Assembly (NCBI GenBank): GCA_002347045.1
Contig: DDWV01000001.1
Coordinates: forward strand, 33,553-97,552
DNA length: 64,000 nucleotides
From: Candidatus Collierbacteria bacterium UBA2277
GTDB lineage: Bacteria; Patescibacteriota; Microgenomatia; UBA1400; MFAQ01
Reading direction: 5' to 3'
Shown: positions 6,595 to 62,556 of the stretch, piece after piece
Numbering within the stretch: position 1 is the first letter of the stretch
Layout of the letters: each line of letters starts with the position of its first letter
The notes under the pieces: model-generated
The model's database searches: none
Told to the model about the DNA's origin: nothing
Seen by the model: the letters and a program-made list of their open reading frames with translations, nothing else
Position numbers and translations under genes: made by a program

Positions 6595-7287
6595 ATGGAT
6601 AAAAGAAAAGTTATTTTGGCTGTGTTAATAGTAATAGTGTTCGGAGGTGTGGGTAGTTTGATAAAACTGACTAGAGATAACAAACAACTTAGATCTGAGA
6701 TACAGGGTTTGAAGGAAGATCCATACAAAATTGCAAAAGAGGAGACGGCAAATATTGTGGCTTTGGTCGGTAAGCTGGTGATTTTGCCTGAAGGAGAAGA
6801 GCCTGTCTTGGCAACCGTAACAGACAAAGAAAAGCTTAAAGATCAGCCAGTATTTGCCAAAGCGGAAAACGGAGACAAGATACTGATTTATTCGATTGCC
6901 CAAAAAGCGTATATTTATAATCCTACAAAAAATGTAATTGTGGATGTGGTTTCGGTAAACATTGGAGAAGAGAATATTGTCATTACGGGTGTCGATAAAA
7001 ATAACCCCTTAAAGATTGCACTGATAAATGGTAGTAAGACTGTTGGATTGACAAATATTTTTGAAGATAATCTTAATGAAAAGAAAATAATGGGCTTGTC
7101 AGTGGTGTTAAAAGCAAATGCAAAAAAAGATGATTATACAAAGACTCAAGTGTTTGACTTGTCTGGGAAATGGAGTGTACAAGCAAAAGAGATTGCTCAG
7201 ATGGTTGGGGGAGAAGTAATAACAGAGACAGAAGAAGATAAGCCAAATGCTGATTTATTGATAATTGTAGGAGAAAATTTTATGTAA
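6595..7287 (+). CDS. Hypothetical membrane-anchored/secreted protein (N-terminal TM helix)
   Basis: 230-aa ORF with N-terminal hydrophobic segment VILAVLIVIVFGGVGSLI. Its stop codon TAA lies inside the start of repeat copy A. Confidence 0.5.
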   Translation: MDKRKVILAVLIVIVFGGVGSLIKLTRDNKQLRSEIQGLKEDPYKIAKEETANIVALVGKLVILPEGEEPVLATVTDKEKLKDQPVFAKAENGDKILIYSIAQKAYIYNPTKNVIVDVVSVNIGEENIVITGVDKNNPLKIALINGSKTVGLTNIFEDNLNEKKIMGLSVVLKANAKKDDYTKTQVFDLSGKWSVQAKEIAQMVGGEVITETEEDKPNADLLIIVGENFM

Positions 7288-7390
7288 GAGCTTGCTCGTA
7301 TTTTTAGCTTAACTTCGTTATGTGTCTAAAAAATACTTGCGCTTCCTCTTATACTGAAACCCCATAATTACTTTGTCATTATGTGGATTG
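7284..7390 (+). repeat. Dispersed structured intergenic repeat, copy A (type 1)
   Basis: Motifs GTAAGAGCTTGCTCG, long hairpin GTATTTTTAG..CTAAAAAATAC enclosing TAAC-TTCG-GTTA, then CTTGCGCTTCCTCTTATACTGAAACCCCATAATTACTTTGTCATTATGTGG. Near-identical to copy C. Confidence 0.75.
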
Positions 7391-7427
7391 GTATAAATTG
7401 AGGCTATTGATGGTAAAATACTATGGT

Positions 7428-7501
7428 GCCACCTTAGCTCAGTTGGTTAGAGCACCTGTTTTGTAAACAGGATGTCCTGAGTTCGAATCTCAGAGGTGGC
7501 T
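7428..7501 (+). tRNA. tRNA-Thr (anticodon TGT)
   Basis: Hand-folded cloverleaf: acceptor GCCACCT/AGGTGGC, D-arm GCTC..GAGC, anticodon stem CCTGT/ACAGG with loop TTTGTAA, T-arm CTGAG-TTCGAAT-CTCAG. CCA not encoded. Confidence 0.85.
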
Positions 7502-7543
7502 CAGTAGTCTGATGTTTTTAGGAAGGATGGTAGGTTCTGTTTT

Positions 7544-7652
7544 GTAAGAGCTTGCTCGTCCTTCTTTCAATAATGGGCTATTATTGAAATGGCCTCCTGC
7601 GCTTCCTCTTATATCATGCGCCGATAATCACTTCGTCATTATCGTCTGGATA
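7544..7652 (+). repeat. Dispersed structured intergenic repeat, copy B (type 2)
   Basis: GTAAGAGCTTGCTCG; perfect 10-bp hairpin TTTCAATAAT-GGGCT-ATTATTGAAA; CTGCGCTTCCTCTTATA; hairpin CGATAATCACTTCGTCATTATCG. Similar to copies D and E. Confidence 0.75.
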
Positions 7653-7691
7653 TAAACAGGATGTCCTGAGTTCGAATCTCAGAGGTGGCTC
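7653..7691 (+). repeat. 39-nt exact duplicate of the 3' half of tRNA-Thr(TGT) (direct repeat of 7464-7502), att-like
   Basis: TAAACAGGATGTCCTGAGTTCGAATCTCAGAGGTGGCTC is identical at 7464-7502 and 7653-7691, bracketing repeat copy B. Confidence 0.85.
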
Positions 7692-7696
7692 TAAAT

Positions 7697-8242
7697 ATGA
7701 ATTTTTCAAAAGTATTGCCCGGCGACAGAATTATATACTCCGAAAAAACTGGAATTAGGCGAATTAGGGTGAATGATGTGGAGGAAATGAGACGCATGAG
7801 AATCATAGAAGATGATCCGGAGGTGTGTAAGTTTGTAGAGGATCTTCAGGCTACGGAGGAGGGACTTCGAAATTTTGCGAAGGGGAGTAGTGAGTCTGTA
7901 GTATTGGGAGTAATACAGGGAGGTGAGGTTCAGGGATGGATTTGCTTGTATCCGGATGAGTCGGAAAGACTGACTAGACTAGGATTGGCAGAAGATGCTG
8001 TAGAGATATGTTATGCCAAGTACCCTGGTGCCCCGAGAGGGCTCATGAGTAGTGGACTGAGACAAGTAATTGAGATGATAGTTGGCGAGACCTTCACTGC
8101 CTACACTGATCCAGATAATTTAAATTCTTCCAGACTACTTGAAGCGGTAGGATTTAAAAATGCCGGGAAGATTAAATATCACCCAGGCGCCAAGACACTG
8201 GACAACTTTTGGATTTTGAATAATAGCCCACTGATTTGCTGA
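7697..8242 (+). CDS. GNAT-family N-acetyltransferase-like protein (tentative)
   Basis: ORF 7685..8242 begins at GTG; first ATG is at 7697. The C-terminal region (AYTDPDNLNSSRLLEAVGF) resembles the GNAT acetyl-CoA-binding core. Weak assignment. Confidence 0.45.
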   Translation: MNFSKVLPGDRIIYSEKTGIRRIRVNDVEEMRRMRIIEDDPEVCKFVEDLQATEEGLRNFAKGSSESVVLGVIQGGEVQGWICLYPDESERLTRLGLAEDAVEICYAKYPGAPRGLMSSGLRQVIEMIVGETFTAYTDPDNLNSSRLLEAVGFKNAGKIKYHPGAKTLDNFWILNNSPLIC

Positions 8243-8352
8243 AAAACTGGCTATTTGAGTCTACTATTTGTCAAGTTGCAGTCAGTATAGGAATGTCTTT
8301 TACTTTCTGGGCTTGGGGAAGATGAAGTTTTGAGGTAAAATAGACGATGATT

Positions 8353-8428
8353 GCCGTCATAGCTCATCTGGCAGAGCGCGTTCTTGGTAAGAACGAGGTG
8401 TTGGGTTCGACCCCCAATGACGGCTCCA
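8353..8428 (+). tRNA. tRNA-Thr (anticodon GGT), CCA encoded
   Basis: Acceptor GCCGTCA/TGACGGC, anticodon stem CGTTC/GAACG with loop TTGGTAA, T-arm TTGGG-TTCGACC-CCCAA, discriminator T followed by CCA. Confidence 0.85.
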
Positions 8429-8453
8429 TATATCGGATATAATAAGCGTATAA

Positions 8454-8536
8454 GCCAAGGTGGTAGAGTGGTCAAATACTCGGGTCTGTAAAACCCGCGG
8501 CGCAAGCCTACACAAGTTCGAATCTTGTCCTTGGCA
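8454..8536 (+). tRNA. tRNA-Tyr (anticodon GTA), long variable arm
   Basis: Acceptor GCCAAGG/CCTTGGC, anticodon stem CGGGT/ACCCG with loop CTGTAAA, variable arm CGGCGCAAGCC, T-arm ACAAG-TTCGAAT-CTTGT. Confidence 0.85.
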
Positions 8537-8608
8537 CTCACAATTTTAGGACAATCTTCTCACAAGTTCTCCCCGGAGTACCGAGGATTTCTACCTTACA
8601 GGTAGTCA

Positions 8609-8631
8609 GAATCTTGTCCTTGGCACTCACA
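8609..8631 (+). repeat. 23-nt exact duplicate of tRNA-Tyr 3' end (copy of 8520-8542)
   Basis: GAATCTTGTCCTTGGCACTCACA is identical to the tRNA-Tyr 3' terminus plus 6 nt of trailer. Confidence 0.85.
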
Positions 8632-8653
8632 TTTAATCTCGGAGTGTGTTTTT

Positions 8654-8760
8654 GTAACAGCTTGCTCGATTTTTCATCATAACTTTGGTTATGTAAATGA
8701 AAAATCTTGCGCTTCCTGTTATTCTGAAACCCCATAATTACTTTGTCATTATGTGGTTGG
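8654..8760 (+). repeat. Dispersed structured intergenic repeat, copy C (type 1)
   Basis: GTAACAGCTTGCTCG; compound hairpin GATTTTTCAT-CATAAC-TTTG-GTTATG-TAA-ATGAAAAATC; CTTGCGCTTCCTGTTATTCTGAAACCCCATAATTACTTTGTCATTATGTGG. Confidence 0.75.
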
Positions 8761-8765
8761 AATCA

Positions 8766-8783
8766 GAATCTTGTCCTTGGCAC
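8766..8783 (+). repeat. 18-nt duplicate of tRNA-Tyr 3' end (third copy)
   Basis: GAATCTTGTCCTTGGCAC; with preceding TCA it forms a 21-nt direct repeat with 8606-8626, bracketing copy C. Confidence 0.8.
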
Positions 8784-8806
8784 CAATAGTTTGATAGACT
8801 GGAAGT

Positions 8807-27843: not shown

Positions 27844-28362
27844 ATGTATGAAGTGTCTTTACCCCTGAAAGAGCAGTTCACATATTGGGATGTAGTTCGA
27901 TCATTGCCCACAGGCTGGGTTGCTGAGCCGTCAGATGATGGAGTTTTCATCTATGACATTCAAAAGCTTGGTTCCCGTCGTCGAGTTGGCAAGGTGGAAA
28001 TTACCGACAATGAGTTAGTATTTTCTGTCGACGAAAGTACTGAAGATGGTGCCAAGTTCTGGGATGATTTTTCTTATAAATATCCAATGAACTCACCTCA
28101 AAGGGTGTGTTATGGAATTGTTTACAAAATTTCAGAGAAAATTTACCTGTTTGAGAAGACAGTAACCCAGAATTATTTGCCTGGAGTATTGGAAAATATG
28201 AGAAAGTACAAAGCAATTGATGTATATTTCGTTACTTTCTTTTTGGGGGACTTGAAAAAGGGTAAAGAACTGAAGGGTCTTTATCATCAAAGGATTGACT
28301 CTGAAGGTTCCCTGGGAGACACCTGGGGGGAGTGCGTATTTAGTTTTTCTAATCCTGGATAA
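27844..28362 (+). CDS. Hypothetical protein, paralog 1 of a pair flanking thyX
   Basis: 172 aa; shares LP.GW, FW..F..KYP, FV.FFLGD motifs and overall length with the 29439..29972 product. Terminator GAGGGC-TCTAAG-GGGCCCTC-TTTTTT follows. Confidence 0.55.
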   Translation: MYEVSLPLKEQFTYWDVVRSLPTGWVAEPSDDGVFIYDIQKLGSRRRVGKVEITDNELVFSVDESTEDGAKFWDDFSYKYPMNSPQRVCYGIVYKISEKIYLFEKTVTQNYLPGVLENMRKYKAIDVYFVTFFLGDLKKGKELKGLYHQRIDSEGSLGDTWGECVFSFSNPG

Positions 28363-29438: not shown

Positions 29439-29972
29439 ATGTATCGAGTTGAAAGAAAATTAGGAAATACCGATTTTAGGTCGGTTTTAAGAGCTTTACC
29501 AAAAGGCTGGATTATTGAGGCAGTCGGGTATATCAACTTGTTTCAAATATCCAACGAGACAACTTATGTTGGAGTAGGATTTGTGAAGATATTAGACGAG
29601 AAGACAATTTCTATCTTGGTTGACGAAACCGAACCTGATGGTAAGTTGTTTTGGCAGGCTTTTGCCAGGAAGTATCCTGAACAAAATCCATTTGATATTC
29701 GATATGCCCTGCTTTATCAGGTCGGTGGTGAGGGGGAGCTTTATGAGATTGATAAGTACCCAAGTCATTCGATTGGAGACCCTTTTAGTCAGGCTATCCA
29801 TTACAAAAATGTTACAGCATTTGTCGTTTCATTTTTGTTTGGGGACTGGGTTCCTGGGAGGTCTGTTGAGGTAATTGCCTATCAGGAGATTCTGAAAAAT
29901 GGTGATCTTGGGCCAGAACAGCCAGCAAGAGTTTTCCGGCTTGCGGGTATCGAAAACGAAAATACAATGTAG
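29439..29972 (+). CDS. Hypothetical protein, paralog 2 of the pair flanking thyX
   Basis: 177 aa; same motif set as 27844..28362. Terminator GCTCCGGCT-TTCA-GCCGGAGC-TTTTTT follows. Confidence 0.55.
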   Translation: MYRVERKLGNTDFRSVLRALPKGWIIEAVGYINLFQISNETTYVGVGFVKILDEKTISILVDETEPDGKLFWQAFARKYPEQNPFDIRYALLYQVGGEGELYEIDKYPSHSIGDPFSQAIHYKNVTAFVVSFLFGDWVPGRSVEVIAYQEILKNGDLGPEQPARVFRLAGIENENTM

Positions 29973-35735: not shown

Positions 35736-35767
35736 ATTTTTGTGGTAAAATAAGCAGGTTAAATTAT

Positions 35768-35874
35768 ATGAGTTTGCTCGTCTTCTCTTCAATATATTCA
35801 TTATTGAAGTATCCAGACGGCACTTTCTCTTATAATCTAATCGCTCATAACTATGTTATGGTGCTTGATTATAA
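35768..35874 (+). repeat. Dispersed structured intergenic repeat, copy D (type 2, degenerate 5' end)
   Basis: GAGTTTGCTCG; hairpin CTTCAATA-TATTCAT-TATTGAAG; ...CTCTTATAATCTAATCGCTCATAACTATGTTATGGTGCTTGATTAT. Lies upstream of rpsB. Confidence 0.7.
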
Positions 35875-35931
35875 AATTGTCCCGGCACGAATCTCTGCAA
35901 AGTGCCTGTGGATTAAACGAGATGAATAAAT

Positions 35932-52620: not shown

Positions 52621-52670
52621 AACTAGTATCTCTCAGGGTTTTTGTGGCTATTTGTGATACAATATCTTGT

Positions 52671-52772
52671 TATAAGAGCTTGCTCGTTTTCTTTTCAATA
52701 TTTGATTATCGAAATATTCAAACTGCGCTTCCTCTTATAATCGCTCATAACTTCGTTATGATGCTTGATTAT
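52671..52772 (+). repeat. Dispersed structured intergenic repeat, copy E (type 2)
   Basis: TATAAGAGCTTGCTCG; AT-rich hairpin AATATTT-GATTATCG-AAATATT; CTGCGCTTCCTCTTATAATCGCTCATAACTTCGTTATGATGCTTGATTAT. Lies upstream of rpsF. Confidence 0.75.
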
Positions 52773-52826
52773 TAAAAGAACCAAAAAAAGGTGAGAAAAA
52801 CAAAGACAACCGAAACAAAACCGTCC

Positions 52827-60272: not shown

Positions 60273-61575
60273 TACTCGGATTCCACCTCATGCAGATGAG
60301 GCTGAAAAATCAATTTTGGGTGCAATCTTGATCGACAAGGATGCAATAGTAGATATTGCTGTTCTTTTGAGACCTGAGATGTTTTATAACGGAAACAATG
60401 GGGAGATTTTTAATGCTATGGTATCTCTGTATGAGAATCGAGATCCTATTGACGTTCTTACTGTGGCAGACTGGCTAAAGAAAGAAAAGCAGTTGGACAA
60501 GGTGGGTGGTAGGACATATTTGTCAGAGCTTTCAAATGTTGTTCCGGTTGCTTCTCATGTAGCAAAGTACGGCCAGATTGTGCGAGAAACATATATAAAG
60601 CGACAGCTTATCTCAGCAGGTGCTGTTATGGGAGAGATGGGGTTTGATGAAAGTAAACCGTTAGGTGAGATACTGGATAAAGCTGAACAGGCAATTTATT
60701 CCCTGTCACAAACGCATGTTAAAAAGTCTTTTGTTCCTGTAAAAGATGCTTTGGCCGAAAGTTTTGATCGTTTGGACTCCTTGCAAAATACTCCAGACGG
60801 ACTAAGAGGTTTACCTACGGGTTTTGCAGATTTAGATAAGATGTTGGCCGGAATGCAGGACAGTAATTTACTCATATTAGCTGCTCGTCCTGGTATAGGA
60901 AAAACAACCCTTGCTACAAATATTGCCCAGTATGCTGCTGTTGAGAAAAAACTTCCTGTGGGATATTTTGCTTTGGAAATGAGTAACTTGGAAATGGTAG
61001 ATAGAATGTTGGTGTCTCAGTCAAATATTGATGCATGGAAATTAAAAACGGGAAACTTGAAGGATGATGATTTTGCTAGATTGTCTGAAGGAATGGGAGT
61101 TTTGGCTGAGTCACCTTTGTATATCGATGATACCCCTGGTCAGTCTATTCTTGAGCTTAGAACAAAAGCTCGTCGTTTGCATTCTCAGGTAGGATTGAAG
61201 CTTTTGGTGGTTGATTACTTGCAGCTTTGTGTGGGTGACAAGAACTATGAGAGCAGAGTTCAAGAAGTGGGTGCCATATCTCAGGGATTGAAGAACCTGG
61301 CTCGTGAGCTGCGAATTCCAGTATTGGCGCTTTCACAGTTGAATCGTGGAGTTGAAAATAGAACGGACAAGACACCTGTGCTTGCTGATTTACGTGAGTC
61401 GGGCAGTATTGAGCAGGACGCAGATGTTGTTATGTTTCTTTATCGAAACGATGACGCGGTTTTGGAGGATGTTAAGTTGGCTATTGCAAAACATCGTAAT
61501 GGTGGACTGGGAACAATTGATCTTAAGTTTCGTGGTGATAGGGTTAAGTTTTATGGTGTGGATAGGGGAAGGTAA
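60265..61575 (+). CDS. dnaB: Replicative DNA helicase DnaB
   Basis: N-terminal primase-interaction domain (PPHADEAEKSILGAIL), Walker A ARPGIGKTT, Walker B LLVVDYLQL, arginine finger region; no intein; 436 aa. Confidence 0.85.
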   Translation: MPNTRIPPHADEAEKSILGAILIDKDAIVDIAVLLRPEMFYNGNNGEIFNAMVSLYENRDPIDVLTVADWLKKEKQLDKVGGRTYLSELSNVVPVASHVAKYGQIVRETYIKRQLISAGAVMGEMGFDESKPLGEILDKAEQAIYSLSQTHVKKSFVPVKDALAESFDRLDSLQNTPDGLRGLPTGFADLDKMLAGMQDSNLLILAARPGIGKTTLATNIAQYAAVEKKLPVGYFALEMSNLEMVDRMLVSQSNIDAWKLKTGNLKDDDFARLSEGMGVLAESPLYIDDTPGQSILELRTKARRLHSQVGLKLLVVDYLQLCVGDKNYESRVQEVGAISQGLKNLARELRIPVLALSQLNRGVENRTDKTPVLADLRESGSIEQDADVVMFLYRNDDAVLEDVKLAIAKHRNGGLGTIDLKFRGDRVKFYGVDRGR

Positions 61576-61680
61576 GAGCTTTCTCGATATTTCATCATAC
61601 CTACGTTATGTATCTGAAAAATTTTGTGCTTCCTCCTCTAATACTGAAGCCCCACTGATTCTTTACACATAGCTGTGCAC
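61572..61680 (+). repeat. Dispersed structured intergenic repeat, copy F (type 1, divergent)
   Basis: GTAAGAGCTTTCTCG begins at the dnaB stop codon; CATCATACCTACGTTATG; TGTGCTTCCTCCTCTAATACTGAAGCCCCACTGATTCTTTACACATAGCTG. Confidence 0.65.
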
Positions 61681-61773
61681 TGTTGATATGGCCTATAGCT
61701 TGACATTATACAAATATATTGATACAATTCAAGAGTACTTTAAACCTATTTTTTAGACCACAGGAGGAGAATA

Positions 61774-62042: not shown

Positions 62043-62325
62043 AAATGAAGTGGGTTATTTTATGCCGAGAGAGGGGATGCGATTCCCTGCCTCACCAGGT
62101 TCGTTAGGAAACTGGTTCGCCTGTTCGATCCCCTCATGCTTGTCAAAACAAATAGCCCTCCATAAAGGAGGACTATTTTTTTAGTGCCGAGAGAGGGGAT
62201 CGCCATTCAGTAACTATTTGCTAATAGTTCTTCATGGCCTGCCTCGTTGTCAGCCACACCTCCGGCTTTCGATCCCCATTTATGACAAAAAAATATACGT
62301 CCACAAGGGACGTATATTCTTATTG
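62043..62325. repeat. Two tandem ~141-bp units, each beginning with the 3'-terminal 17-20 nt of tRNA-Leu (minus-strand sense); att-like tRNA-end array
   Basis: TGCCGAGAGAGGGGAT(CG) recurs at 62043, 62184 and 62326 (the real tRNA 3' end) with 141/142-bp period. Each unit also contains a TTCGATCCCC block. Confidence 0.7.
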
Positions 62326-62408
62326 TGCCGAGAGAGGGGATCGAACCCTCACGGCCTTGCGACCACAGGTTTTTGAGACCTGAGCGTATACCATTCCGCC
62401 ATCTCGGC
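62326..62408 (-). tRNA. tRNA-Leu (anticodon CAA), long variable arm
   Basis: Minus strand: GCCGAGATGGCGGAATGGTA..., anticodon stem CAGGT/ACCTG with loop CTCAAAA, variable arm TGGTCGCAAGGCCGTG, T-arm GAGGG-TTCGATC-CCCTC, acceptor 3' strand TCTCGGC + A. Confidence 0.8.
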
Positions 62409-62436
62409 ATTACTAAGTTATATTTTATCTCACTAA

Positions 62437-62492
62437 GGTCTTGCGACCACAGGTTTTTTAGCCTTAAGTGTTTACCATTCTGCCATCTTGGC
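62437..62492 (-). pseudogene. Truncated tRNA-Leu(TAA)-like 5' fragment (acceptor, D-arm, anticodon region, variable arm) lacking T-arm and 3' acceptor strand
   Basis: Minus strand GCCAAGATGGCAGAATGGTAAACACTTAAGGCTAAAAAACCTGTGGTCGCAAGACC is ~80% identical to the 5' two-thirds of the adjacent tRNA-Leu; no TTCGA T-loop follows. Confidence 0.6.
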
Positions 62493-62556
62493 ATGACTAA
62501 GACTATATTTTACATTAAATCGCTTTGTTGAGGGTGGAATGGAGTAGAATATAGGA

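What the first reader, a model, noticed from the sequence alone, without database searches (positions are those of the whole stretch)
7428..8783. Repeat copies B and C are bracketed by direct duplications of tRNA 3' ends, an att-like signature of tRNA-targeted integration
A 39-nt copy of the tRNA-Thr(TGT) 3' half (7464-7502) recurs exactly at 7653-7691, with repeat copy B in the 150-bp segment between them. Likewise the 23-nt tRNA-Tyr 3' end (8520-8542) recurs at 8609-8631. A 21-nt version (TCAGAATCTTGTCCTTGGCAC) brackets copy C at 8606-8626 and 8763-8783. This is the classical attL/attR geometry left by integrases that target tRNA 3' ends. Here the inserted 'cargo' is only ~110-150 bp and encodes nothing. 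That suggests non-autonomous mini-elements mobilised in trans, or the collapsed remains of serial integration and excision. The 5' boundary of B (TTCTGTTTTGTAAGAG) also mimics the tRNA-Thr anticodon stem-loop (CCTGTTTTGTAAACAGG).
Basis: seen in the sequence. Interest (0 to 1): 0.8.

Follow-up and report, generated by a model that had tools for sequence, protein, structure and literature searches.

The report
Small mobile repeat inside tRNA stubs
The duplicated tRNA ends are real, but they look like leftover stubs of extra tRNA gene copies that a previously undescribed ~110-bp structured mobile repeat of Collierbacteria-type (CPR) bacteria has inserted into or next to, not classical integrase attachment sites.

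Summary
Repeats A, B and C belong to a ~110-nt element, called E here. The window holds six copies, and I found about 150 more in Patescibacteria MAGs and metagenomes. E matches no Rfam family. Its three-helix fold covaries strongly and is strand-specific.

E is mobile. Three filled/empty site pairs show a 4-5 bp A/T-rich direct repeat that occurs once in the empty site. Syntenic relatives carry intact tRNA-Thr and tRNA-Tyr genes with no E and no duplicates.

Across genomes, 21 of 39 partial tRNA copies abut an E end, against 3% expected. In most cases the tRNA sequence continues on the far side of E, so E sits inside a truncated tRNA copy. B lies in the anticodon loop of a stub of tRNA-Thr(UGU). 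C has only the 3' arm.

The stubs involve at least ten tRNA species, 5' or 3' parts, D-, anticodon- and T-loops, and both E orientations. No integrase was found. A fixed attP is therefore not supported, although a tRNA-linked mini-element remains possible. How the stubs arise is unresolved.

The parts
7283..7400 (+). Element E, copy A. It follows the LytR_C-like ORF, and the ORF's TAA stop codon is the TAA of helix P1. It lies 36 nt upstream of tRNA-Thr(UGU).
   Evidence: CM R1 hit at 82 bits; alignment. The flank TTTTATGTAA is the native ORF end in relatives.
7428..7502 (+). Intact tRNA-Thr(UGU) gene.
   Evidence: ARAGORN; Rfam tRNA model, 72.7 bits.
7503..7536 (+). Spacer between the intact tRNA and the stub. 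No similarity elsewhere in the window; only its 3' part matches relative L224.
   Evidence: blastn-short search.
7537..7547 (+). Short arm of the tRNA-Thr(UGU) stub: CTGTTTTGTAA, tRNA positions 29-39 (anticodon stem 5' strand plus loop).
   Evidence: Exact 11-nt match; control P = 0.005.
7547..7652 (+). Element E, copy B, inserted in the anticodon loop of the stub. TAA is present on both sides.
   Evidence: CM R1 hit at 100 bits. A copy is present at the same place in relative L224.
7653..7691 (+). Long arm of the stub: an exact 39-nt copy of tRNA-Thr(UGU) positions 37-75. It ends one base after the discriminator; no CCA follows.
   Evidence: Absent from L224.
7697..8242 (+). GNAT acetyltransferase ORF in a variable slot. 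It is absent in L224 and replaced by an unrelated 201-202-aa ORF in L241-L248.
   Evidence: Pfam PF13302, E = 1.9e-7; synteny.
8353..8428 (+). tRNA-Thr(GGU).
8454..8537 (+). Intact tRNA-Tyr(GUA).
8561..8631 (+). tRNA-Tyr stub 2. It consists of a short arm CACAAGTTC (8561-8569), a unique 36-nt insert in the T-loop (8570-8605), and a long arm plus trailer TCAGAATCTTGTCCTTGGCAC-TCACA (8606-8631). The trailer is shared with the intact gene, which points to a local tandem duplication.
   Evidence: Sequence read directly; repeat family D2; the insert is unique.
8654..8763 (+). Element E, copy C. P1 carries a compensatory TAACAG/CTGTTA change.
   Evidence: CM R1 hit at 88 bits; fold z-score -4.9.
8763..8783 (+). 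tRNA-Tyr stub 3 (T-loop to 3' end), directly abutting the 3' end of C. No short arm is seen on C's 5' side.
35762..35879 (+). Diverged copy of E upstream of rpsB; no tRNA piece.
   Evidence: CM R1 hit at 62 bits; Pfam Ribosomal_S2 for the downstream ORF.
52668..52779 (+). Copy D of E, between a ychF-like ORF and rpsF; no tRNA piece.
61568..61696 (+). Weak, diverged copy of E overlapping the dnaB stop codon.
   Evidence: CM R1 hit at 31.9 bits; sequence.

Best explanation
B and C are copies of a ~105-115-bp non-coding insertion element, called E here.

What E looks like: it has no terminal inverted repeats. It has a conserved fold: helix P1 (UAAGAG/CUCUUA), a core helix built from GCUUGCUCG and CUGCGCUUCC, a variable hairpin P2, and a long 3' hairpin P3. 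E is abundant in Collierbacteria and other Patescibacteria.

How E moves: it inserts at short A/T-rich sites and ends up flanked by a 2-5 bp direct repeat (ATATA, AAATA, ATAA, TAA, TA). The A/T-rich loops of tRNA genes appear to be favoured targets.

What the window shows: B lies in the anticodon loop of a truncated second copy of tRNA-Thr(UGU) (about positions 29-75), 34 nt downstream of the intact gene. C abuts the T-loop end of a 3' stub of tRNA-Tyr. The att-like direct repeats are therefore the intact gene plus disrupted partial copies of it. They are not recombination sites carried by the element.

Why the intact gene is always next door: only arrangements that keep one whole copy of an essential single-copy tRNA can survive.

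Shown: the family, its fold, its mobility, its tight physical link to tRNA stubs, and the empty sites.

Inferred: that the stubs arise by local partial duplication or replacement of the tRNA gene, and that an enzyme encoded elsewhere moves E. The order of events (stub first or E first) is not resolved.
For: Family and fold:
- Six copies in the window.
- nhmmer finds 155 copies in 137 loci from independent assemblies.
- No Rfam family matches at E <= 10.
- In 109 aligned copies, 96.8% of cells are paired. There are 298 double-change cells against 75 in shuffles (0 of 500 shuffles reach the observed value). Slid controls give 34-60% paired.
- G.U/U.G pairs number 57 against 13 A.C/C.A, plus one near-invariant G.U.
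- Copies found without the search pattern show a compensatory G-C to A-U change in the core helix.

Mobility:
- L144 versus L213/L159/L143: E is flanked by ATATA, which occurs once in the empty site.
- L222 versus L213: AAATA. L218 versus L213/L076: ATAA.
- Syntenic loci L241-L248 have none of A, B, C and no tRNA duplicates.

tRNA link:
- 39 of 155 copies lie within 300 nt of a tRNA.
- 21 of 39 exact partial tRNA copies of at least 14 nt abut an E end, against 3.1% of positions expected; binomial P about 1e-21.
- In 12-13 of 20 cases the tRNA sequence continues on the far side of E (mean longest match 6.55 nt against 4.34 in controls), with 2-3 nt shared by both arms.

Stub formation by local duplication including flanks is visible in L057, L160, L133 and in window Tyr stub 2.

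No recombinase was found nearby.
Against: - The stub boundary lies only 7-13 nt from E, and E always occupies the first loop after that boundary. This ties stub formation to E more tightly than a model of pre-existing stubs hit at random would predict.
- C has no short arm.
- For B, the sequence after the long arm is unrelated to the sequence after the intact tRNA, so a simple tandem duplication does not explain it.
- Several stubs have a different acceptor stem from the neighbouring intact tRNA (L001, L174, L183, L220). That needs extra gene-replacement steps.
- No transposase or autonomous parent element was found, and there are no terminal inverted repeats.
- The 4-5 bp repeats are always A/T-rich. 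They could be a shared recombination core rather than a true target duplication.
- E's boundaries are known only to within 2-3 nt.
- The core motifs are partly imposed by the search patterns, and some loci are redundant.
Confidence: 0.55

Rival explanations
1. Integrase or Campbell-type mini-element. A small circle made of [spacer + short arm + E + tRNA 3' part] integrates into the tRNA gene. The crossover is either site-specific, in the anticodon or T-loop, or homologous, through the tRNA-identical segment. This leaves the intact tRNA as attL and the displaced 3' part as attR. A recombinase encoded elsewhere acts in trans.
For: - The geometry fits: the identity blocks run from the anticodon loop (39 nt: B and L173) or the T-loop (17-18 nt in seven loci with tRNA-Trp, -Gly or -Glu) to one base past the discriminator.
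- The repeats are usually perfect.
- Empty sites exist in relatives.
- The DNA that follows the intact tRNA often supplies a terminator, as integrative elements do.
- Recombination between the repeats would yield a circle carrying one repeat.
Against: - Stubs of at least ten tRNA species each match their own genome's tRNA, so there is no fixed attP.
- 5' stubs and D-loop junctions occur (L069, L153, L133, L231, L001, L057).
- E lies between the two halves of the supposed core, with its own 2-3 nt repeat.
- E also moves alone into non-tRNA sites.
- No integrase was found in 38 scanned window ORFs, and none was among the 25 most frequent families in 148 ORFs near tRNA-linked copies.
- In L001 the stub's acceptor strand cannot pair with the intact gene's 5' strand, so that locus is not a single crossover product.
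Confidence: 0.2
2. Long target duplication made by the element's own integration. E, and a second family called X here, attack a tRNA gene at a loop on one strand and at the gene's end on the other strand. These would be staggered cuts as in Cas1/casposase integration or target-primed reverse transcription. Gap filling then duplicates the 17-59 bp between the two cuts and leaves an intact tRNA.
For: - X elements are flanked cleanly by 15-21-bp copies of the tRNA 3' end. X's own terminator starts right after the intact tRNA.
- Two X copies in one genome (L034: tRNA-Arg(UCU) and tRNA-Leu(UAA)) each carry the repeat of their own tRNA, which suggests the repeat is target-derived.
- Repeats end consistently one base after the discriminator.
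- Repeat length varies with the loop that was hit.
Against: - For E, the left repeat copy does not abut the element. A spacer of 6-80 nt plus the short arm intervene.
- E has ordinary 4-5 bp repeats at non-tRNA sites.
- No Cas1, reverse transcriptase or other candidate enzyme was found.
- 5' stubs carrying their own duplicated promoter (L133) look like ordinary tandem duplications.
Confidence: 0.12
3. E is a host-encoded functional RNA or cis-regulatory module, such as a leader, terminator or promoter cassette of highly expressed genes. On this view it is duplicated together with pieces of tRNA genes by ordinary recombination and is not itself mobile.
For: - Strong covariation, G.U asymmetry and UUCG loops point to selection on a single-stranded, probably RNA, fold.
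- All six window copies are co-oriented with the downstream gene (tRNA-Thr, rpsB, rpsF and others).
- Across loci the downstream feature is on the same strand in 84 cases and on the opposite strand in 48.
- A -10-like motif occurs at the 3' end in 29% of copies against 11% of random 30-mers.
Against: - Filled/empty polymorphisms have precise boundaries and short direct repeats.
- Flanking genes are almost all different: 226 proteins fall in 178 clusters.
- A third of copies are antisense to both neighbouring genes.
- Close relatives lack E at the same loci.
Confidence: 0.08
4. Assembly artefact: the duplicated tRNA halves are mis-joins at repeats.
For: A unitig-level assembly of the same organism (Logan SRR5324103) stops about 96 nt after the LytR_C gene, inside copy A.
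Against: - The same architecture recurs in dozens of independent assemblies from different projects.
- Six contigs carry the identical LytR_C protein, and those not shown were collapsed as having the same neighbouring genes.
- L224 independently shows tRNA-Thr, the spacer and B in the same arrangement.
Confidence: 0.03

Closest known systems
Bacterial MITEs and other small non-autonomous insertion elements (for example Correia elements of Neisseria, RUP/BOX of Streptococcus, Rickettsia palindromic elements)
   Same: E is short (~110 bp), non-coding and multi-copy. It is intergenic or sits at gene ends. It shows presence/absence polymorphism with short A/T-rich direct repeats at the insertion site, and internally deleted derivatives exist. 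It must be mobilised in trans.
   Different: - No terminal inverted repeats; the two ends share a direct GCTTG motif instead.
- No parent IS or transposase was identified.
- The fold covaries like a functional RNA and is strand-specific.
- There is a marked association with tRNA loops and tRNA stubs.
tRNA-targeted integrative elements with tyrosine integrases (attL/attR direct repeats of tRNA 3' parts; anticodon-loop and T-loop sublocations)
   Same: An intact tRNA is followed by inserted DNA and then by a perfect copy of the tRNA 3' part, running from the anticodon loop or T-loop to the gene end. Serial copies occur downstream of one tRNA. Empty sites exist in relatives.
   Different: - The insert is only 90-190 bp and has no integrase.
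- Stubs match many different tRNAs.
- 5' stubs and D-loop junctions occur.
- E interrupts the stub rather than lying next to it.
- E also inserts at non-tRNA sites.
IS200/IS605-type single-strand elements and their hairpin-bearing derivatives (PATEs, REP/REPIN)
   Same: No terminal inverted repeats. Conserved subterminal hairpins. The structure is strand-specific, which would fit recognition as single-stranded DNA. The elements are non-autonomous and short.
   Different: - By my recollection, which I did not check here, these elements leave no target duplication and insert 3' of a fixed tetra- or pentanucleotide.
- E is flanked by variable 4-5 bp A/T-rich repeats.
- The one IS200-like TnpA seen near an E copy (L144) has its own, unrelated end hairpins.
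Group I introns in tRNA genes of Patescibacteria (PMC13011429)
   Same: The host phylum is the same. In both cases an insertion lies in a tRNA loop, including the anticodon loop.
   Different: - E is far too short for a group I intron and gives no Rfam group I hit.
- The interrupted tRNA copies lack one half, so they cannot be spliced into a tRNA.
- An uninterrupted gene sits next door.

Membership tests
Integrase-generated attL/attR at a tRNA gene | Direct repeats of a tRNA 3' segment (loop to 3' end) flank the inserted DNA next to an intact tRNA. | tested here: met
   A 39-nt exact repeat flanks B. A 21-nt repeat flanks C.
Integrase-generated attL/attR at a tRNA gene | A tyrosine or serine recombinase gene lies in or beside the element (or elsewhere in the genome for a non-autonomous element). 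| tested here: inconclusive
   None was found among 38 scanned window ORFs. No recombinase family was among the 25 most frequent Pfam families in 148 ORFs within 5 kb of tRNA-linked copies. The rest of the genome was not available.
Integrase-generated attL/attR at a tRNA gene | The element carries a fixed attP, so one element family targets one tRNA and one sublocation. | tested here: not met
   The same family abuts stubs of Thr, Tyr, Arg(CCU, UCU, CCG), Pro, Ala, Val, Ile, Trp, Gly, Glu and Gln tRNAs. Junctions lie in D-, anticodon and T-loops, involve 5' or 3' parts, and occur in both orientations.
Integrase-generated attL/attR at a tRNA gene | The att core is uninterrupted; the element lies wholly to one side of it. 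| tested here: not met
   The tRNA sequence continues for 6-13 nt on the other side of E in 12-13 of 20 cases. For B it is 11 nt.
MITE / non-autonomous transposable element | Short, non-coding and multi-copy within and across genomes. | tested here: met
   Six copies in 64 kb. 155 copies in 137 loci.
MITE / non-autonomous transposable element | Filled and empty sites with a short target-site duplication. | tested here: met
   Three independent pairs, with ATATA, AAATA and ATAA. Syntenic loci lack E.
MITE / non-autonomous transposable element | Terminal inverted repeats that match a parent IS. | tested here: not met
   By direct reading of the ends, 5' AGAGCTTGCTCG and 3' ..GATGCTTGAATATA are not reverse complements. 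No parent element was seen.
IS200/IS605-derived hairpin elements | No target duplication; a fixed target tetra- or pentanucleotide 5' of the left end; a Y1 transposase in the genome. | tested here: not met
   Direct repeats are present and vary from site to site. The only conserved feature of the 5' flank is R-T-A. The one TnpA seen has unrelated ends.
Known structured RNA families (Rfam 15) | A match to a curated covariance model. | tested here: not met
   No hit on any E copy at the gathering threshold or at E <= 10.
Group I intron in a tRNA gene | A group I core fold; both exon halves present and spliceable. | tested here: not met
   No RF00028 hit. E is only ~110 nt long. The stub 5' parts are only 7-13 nt.

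The most novel reading that the evidence does not exclude
E and the second family X may be members of an undescribed class of tRNA-gene invaders in CPR bacteria. On this reading they are structured, strand-specific elements, moving as RNA or single-stranded DNA, that enter tRNA gene loops. Their own integration chemistry would duplicate the tRNA segment from the loop to the gene end (17-59 bp), so the essential tRNA is regenerated without a tyrosine integrase and without an element-borne attP.
Probability: 0.15. Interest if true: 0.85.

Novelty: new variant of a known kind. Interest (0 to 1): 0.6.

Why it matters
CPR/Patescibacteria genomes are tiny and are usually described as poor in mobile DNA. 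This analysis shows a widespread, highly structured ~110-bp mobile repeat in them that is not in Rfam and that the literature searches here did not turn up.

The repeat is tightly linked to partial tRNA gene copies at many tRNA loci. If the link is mechanistic, it points to a way of using tRNA genes as landing pads that needs no element-borne integrase or attP. It could also help explain the rapid turnover of tRNA alleles seen here, such as the nested tRNA-Arg(CCU) stubs with different acceptor stems.

There are practical consequences too. Such stubs can confuse tRNA annotation. The repeats appear to break short-read assemblies (one unitig assembly stops inside copy A). The element is also a ready marker for strain-level population studies of Collierbacteria.

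Tried and rejected
- Known RNA family: Rfam at the gathering threshold and at E <= 10 gave nothing on E.
- Split, permuted or intron-containing tRNA: rejected. The 5' parts of the stubs are missing, an intact gene is adjacent, and there is no group I signal.
- Copies of mature tRNA made by reverse transcription (the stub classes resemble tRNA halves and 3' fragments): disfavoured. Stubs end at the discriminator plus C and lack CCA in all but about one case (reading), and no reverse transcriptase was found.
- E as a portable promoter: a -10-like motif occurs at the 3' end in only 29% of copies against 11% of random 30-mers. This is weak.
- Link to IS200/IS605: one TnpA lies 256 nt from an E copy (L144/L148), but it has its own different end hairpins. 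I treat this as coincidence.
- Phage carriage: no exact-pattern match in IMG/VR.
- Recurrent neighbouring gene that might encode the mobilising enzyme: the flanking proteins are almost all unrelated, 226 in 178 clusters. No integrase or transposase family was among the 25 most frequent families.
- Simple tandem duplication for B: rejected. The flank after the long arm differs from the flank after the intact tRNA.
- Origin of the spacers as filler copied from elsewhere: no matches.
- Literature: three full-text searches found no description of this element.
Full report
**Observation.** ARAGORN and Rfam place tRNA-Thr(UGU) at 7428-7502, tRNA-Thr(GGU) at 8353-8428 and tRNA-Tyr at 8454-8537. The repeat finder confirms an exact 39-nt copy of 7464-7502 at 7653-7691. 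It also finds three copies of the tRNA-Tyr 3' end, at 8515-8545, 8604-8634 and 8761-8791. B's 5' flank contains an exact 11-nt copy of tRNA-Thr positions 29-39.

**The repeat is a family.** A, B and C share a ~110-nt unit. A fourth copy lies between a ychF-like ORF and rpsF (52668-52779), with no tRNA piece. A covariance model built from window and MAG copies finds two more diverged copies, at 35762-35879 upstream of rpsB and at 61568-61696 over the dnaB stop codon. Rfam has no match, even at E <= 10.

Pattern scans of genome and metagenome collections returned many true homologues. They come from Collierbacteria and other Patescibacteria MAGs, plus a few MAGs labelled Pseudomonadales, Spirochaetia or Rikenellaceae whose labels I suspect are wrong (not checked). 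nhmmer then counted 155 copies in 137 loci.

The window organism is a Collierbacteria-type CPR bacterium. The LytR_C-like protein next to the tRNA cluster has its best named relatives there, at about 73% identity.

**Structure.** The unit folds as follows:
- P1: UAAGAG/CUCUUA.
- A core helix made of GCUUGCUCG and CUGCGCUUCC.
- A variable hairpin P2.
- A long 3' hairpin P3, often with a UUCG loop.

In 109 copies aligned to the model, 96.8% of cells pair. There are 298 cells with changes on both sides against 75 in shuffles (0 of 500 shuffles reach this). Sliding the 3' partners drops pairing to 34-60%. G.U pairs outnumber A.C by 57 to 13, and one G.U is nearly invariant. The fold is therefore selected on this strand as a single strand, either RNA or ssDNA.

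Two caveats apply. The alignment is fitted to the model, and the two core motifs were required by my search patterns. However, eight copies found without the patterns keep the core with one to three changes, including a compensatory G-C to A-U change.

**Mobility.** I compared the flanks of every copy with all other loci. This gave three clean filled/empty pairs:
- L144 versus L213/L159/L143: ATATA.
- L222 versus L213: AAATA.
- L218 versus L213/L076: ATAA.

In each pair the short A/T-rich repeat flanks E in the filled site and occurs once in the empty site. E has no terminal inverted repeats. Its neighbours are almost all different genes (226 flanking proteins in 178 clusters), and its orientation relative to them is mixed.

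I fetched seven syntenic loci from relatives through the LytR_C protein. They carry LytR_C, tRNA-Thr(UGU), a 201-202-aa ORF, tRNA-Thr(GGU), tRNA-Tyr and the same downstream genes. They have no E (0 model hits) and no tRNA duplicates.

The closest relative is L224, whose coding DNA is about 77% identical. It has B at the same place after tRNA-Thr(UGU) but lacks both the 39-nt half and the GNAT ORF. In L224, E is followed after 19 nt by tRNA-Thr(GGU).

**Link with tRNA stubs.** 39 of 155 copies lie within 300 nt of a tRNA. Of 39 exact partial tRNA copies of at least 14 nt near their parent gene, 21 abut an E end, where 3.1% would be expected by position. The binomial P is about 1e-21, and removing redundant loci leaves 20 of 35.

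The stubs are very varied:
- 3' parts starting in the D-loop (L001, L057, L166, L183), the anticodon loop (window B, L173, L053) or the T-loop (window C and seven loci with Trp, Gly or Glu).
- 5' parts (L069, L174, L153, L133, L231, L183, L220).
- E in either orientation.

In 12-13 of 20 cases the tRNA sequence continues for 6-13 nt on the other side of E, with 2-3 nt (TA, AT, TAA, ATA) present on both sides. So E lies inside a truncated tRNA copy. For B the layout is CTGTTTTGTAA | E | TAAACAGG...GGCTC.

Window Tyr stub 2 has the same layout around a unique 36-nt insert instead of E. C has only the long arm.

**What this means for the att model.** The geometry is formally att-like, and the two commonest stub classes (anticodon loop to end, T-loop to end) match, as far as I recall, two sublocations described for tyrosine integrases. 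Four findings argue against a fixed attP:
- One element family is found with stubs of at least ten tRNA species.
- Each stub is identical to its own genome's tRNA.
- D-loop and 5' stubs occur.
- E sits in the middle of the supposed core.

E also moves on its own. No integrase, transposase or reverse transcriptase was found in 38 scanned window ORFs. No integrase or transposase family was among the 25 most frequent families in 148 ORFs within 5 kb of tRNA-linked copies in about 30 loci. An enzyme encoded elsewhere remains possible.

**How the stubs arise is not settled.** Local tandem duplication including flanks is visible in four places:
- L057, where the tRNA part plus trailer plus the start of E is repeated.
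- L160, where the terminator is repeated.
- L133, where the promoter is repeated.
- Window Tyr stub 2, where the trailer TCACA is repeated.

B does not fit this, because its two downstream flanks are unrelated. Several stubs carry a different acceptor stem from the neighbouring intact gene, and L220 shows nested stubs of three tRNA-Arg(CCU) alleles. This implies replacement by foreign alleles.

The stub boundary is always within 7-13 nt of E, and E is always in the first loop after it. This suggests that E takes part in making the stub. That is why I keep a long-target-duplication model and the mini-circle model as live rivals.

A second family, X, strengthens the idea of a general process. 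X elements are about 100-140 nt long and carry their own terminator. They sit between an intact tRNA and a 15-21-nt copy of its 3' end at many loci, including tRNA-Leu(CAA) in the window. One genome has two X copies next to two different tRNAs, and each carries its own tRNA's repeat.

**Verdict.** The classical integrase attL/attR mechanism is not supported. The thing itself is a new, structured, TIR-less insertion element family of CPR bacteria nested in tRNA gene stubs. Its mobilising enzyme and the origin of the stubs remain open.

Noticed in passing
window 62055-62501 (minus-strand tRNA-Leu(CAA) at 62325-62408): Two extra copies of the tRNA-Leu 3' end lie downstream of the gene, at 62186-62202 and 62063-62078 on the + strand. 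Each is preceded by a ~70-90-nt structured segment (family X) and followed by its own terminator hairpin. A 57-65-nt, 85% identical copy of the tRNA's 5' part lies upstream of the gene (62437-62501). The same layout is seen in L130, L034, L148, L166, L144 and L224.
   Followed up: partly
L241-L248, between LytR_C and tRNA-Thr(GGU): In relatives, tRNA-Thr(UGU) lies on the minus strand in five loci and on the plus strand in two. The slot occupied by the GNAT ORF in the window holds an unrelated 201-202-aa ORF with no Pfam hit. By eye that ORF has a LAGLIDADG-like motif (LGLYWGEG); this was not verified. The slot is empty in L224.
   Followed up: partly
window 7574-7589 and 8215-8230: A 16-nt inverted repeat, 94% complementary, links the P2 hairpin of copy B (TGGGCTATTATTGAAA) to the last codons of the GNAT ORF (TTTGAATAATAGCCCA). 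By a rough estimate about 0.04 such pairs would be expected by chance in this region. It is unexplained; it may be a fragment of another E copy.
   Followed up: no
L224 rc around 550-620; L057 7713-7735; L069 7932-7960; L183 about 7290-7310: Internally deleted E copies. In L224, copy A lacks P2; the deletion runs between the direct 8-mers GCTTGCTC and GCTTCCTC. Stubs of only the first 14-18 nt of E (..TAAGAGCTTGCTC) occur next to tRNAs in three other genomes.
   Followed up: partly
L001, L053, L174/L235/L212, L183, L220, L229 (tRNA-Arg(CCU) loci): tRNA-Arg(CCU) is a hotspot. Stubs with acceptor stems GTCGATG, GAGGTTG, GACGGCG and GTCCATG flank intact genes that have other acceptor stems. In L220 three alleles are nested like onion layers. 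This suggests repeated replacement of the gene by foreign alleles.
   Followed up: partly
window 7284-7286 and 61573-61575: In copies A and F the TAA stop codon of the upstream ORF (LytR_C-like and dnaB respectively) is the TAA of E's P1 helix. For A, relatives without E end the ORF with the same ..AAGTAA, so E inserted immediately after the stop codon.
   Followed up: partly
window 7279-7286, 7539-7547, 8649-8657: Copies A, B and C share the 5' flank TTTT(N)GTAA. In B this is the tRNA-Thr anticodon loop, and in A it is the native end of the ORF. This hints at a sequence preference of this E subfamily for TTTTGTAA-like targets.
   Followed up: no
window 27844-28362 and 29439-29972: Two ORFs of unknown function (172 and 177 aa, no Pfam hit) flank the thyX gene. 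From their N-terminal sequences they look paralogous.
   Followed up: no
L250 (Logan SRR5324103 contig, end of record): An independent unitig assembly of the same organism ends about 96 nt after the LytR_C gene, inside copy A. This is consistent with E copies breaking short-read assemblies.
   Followed up: no
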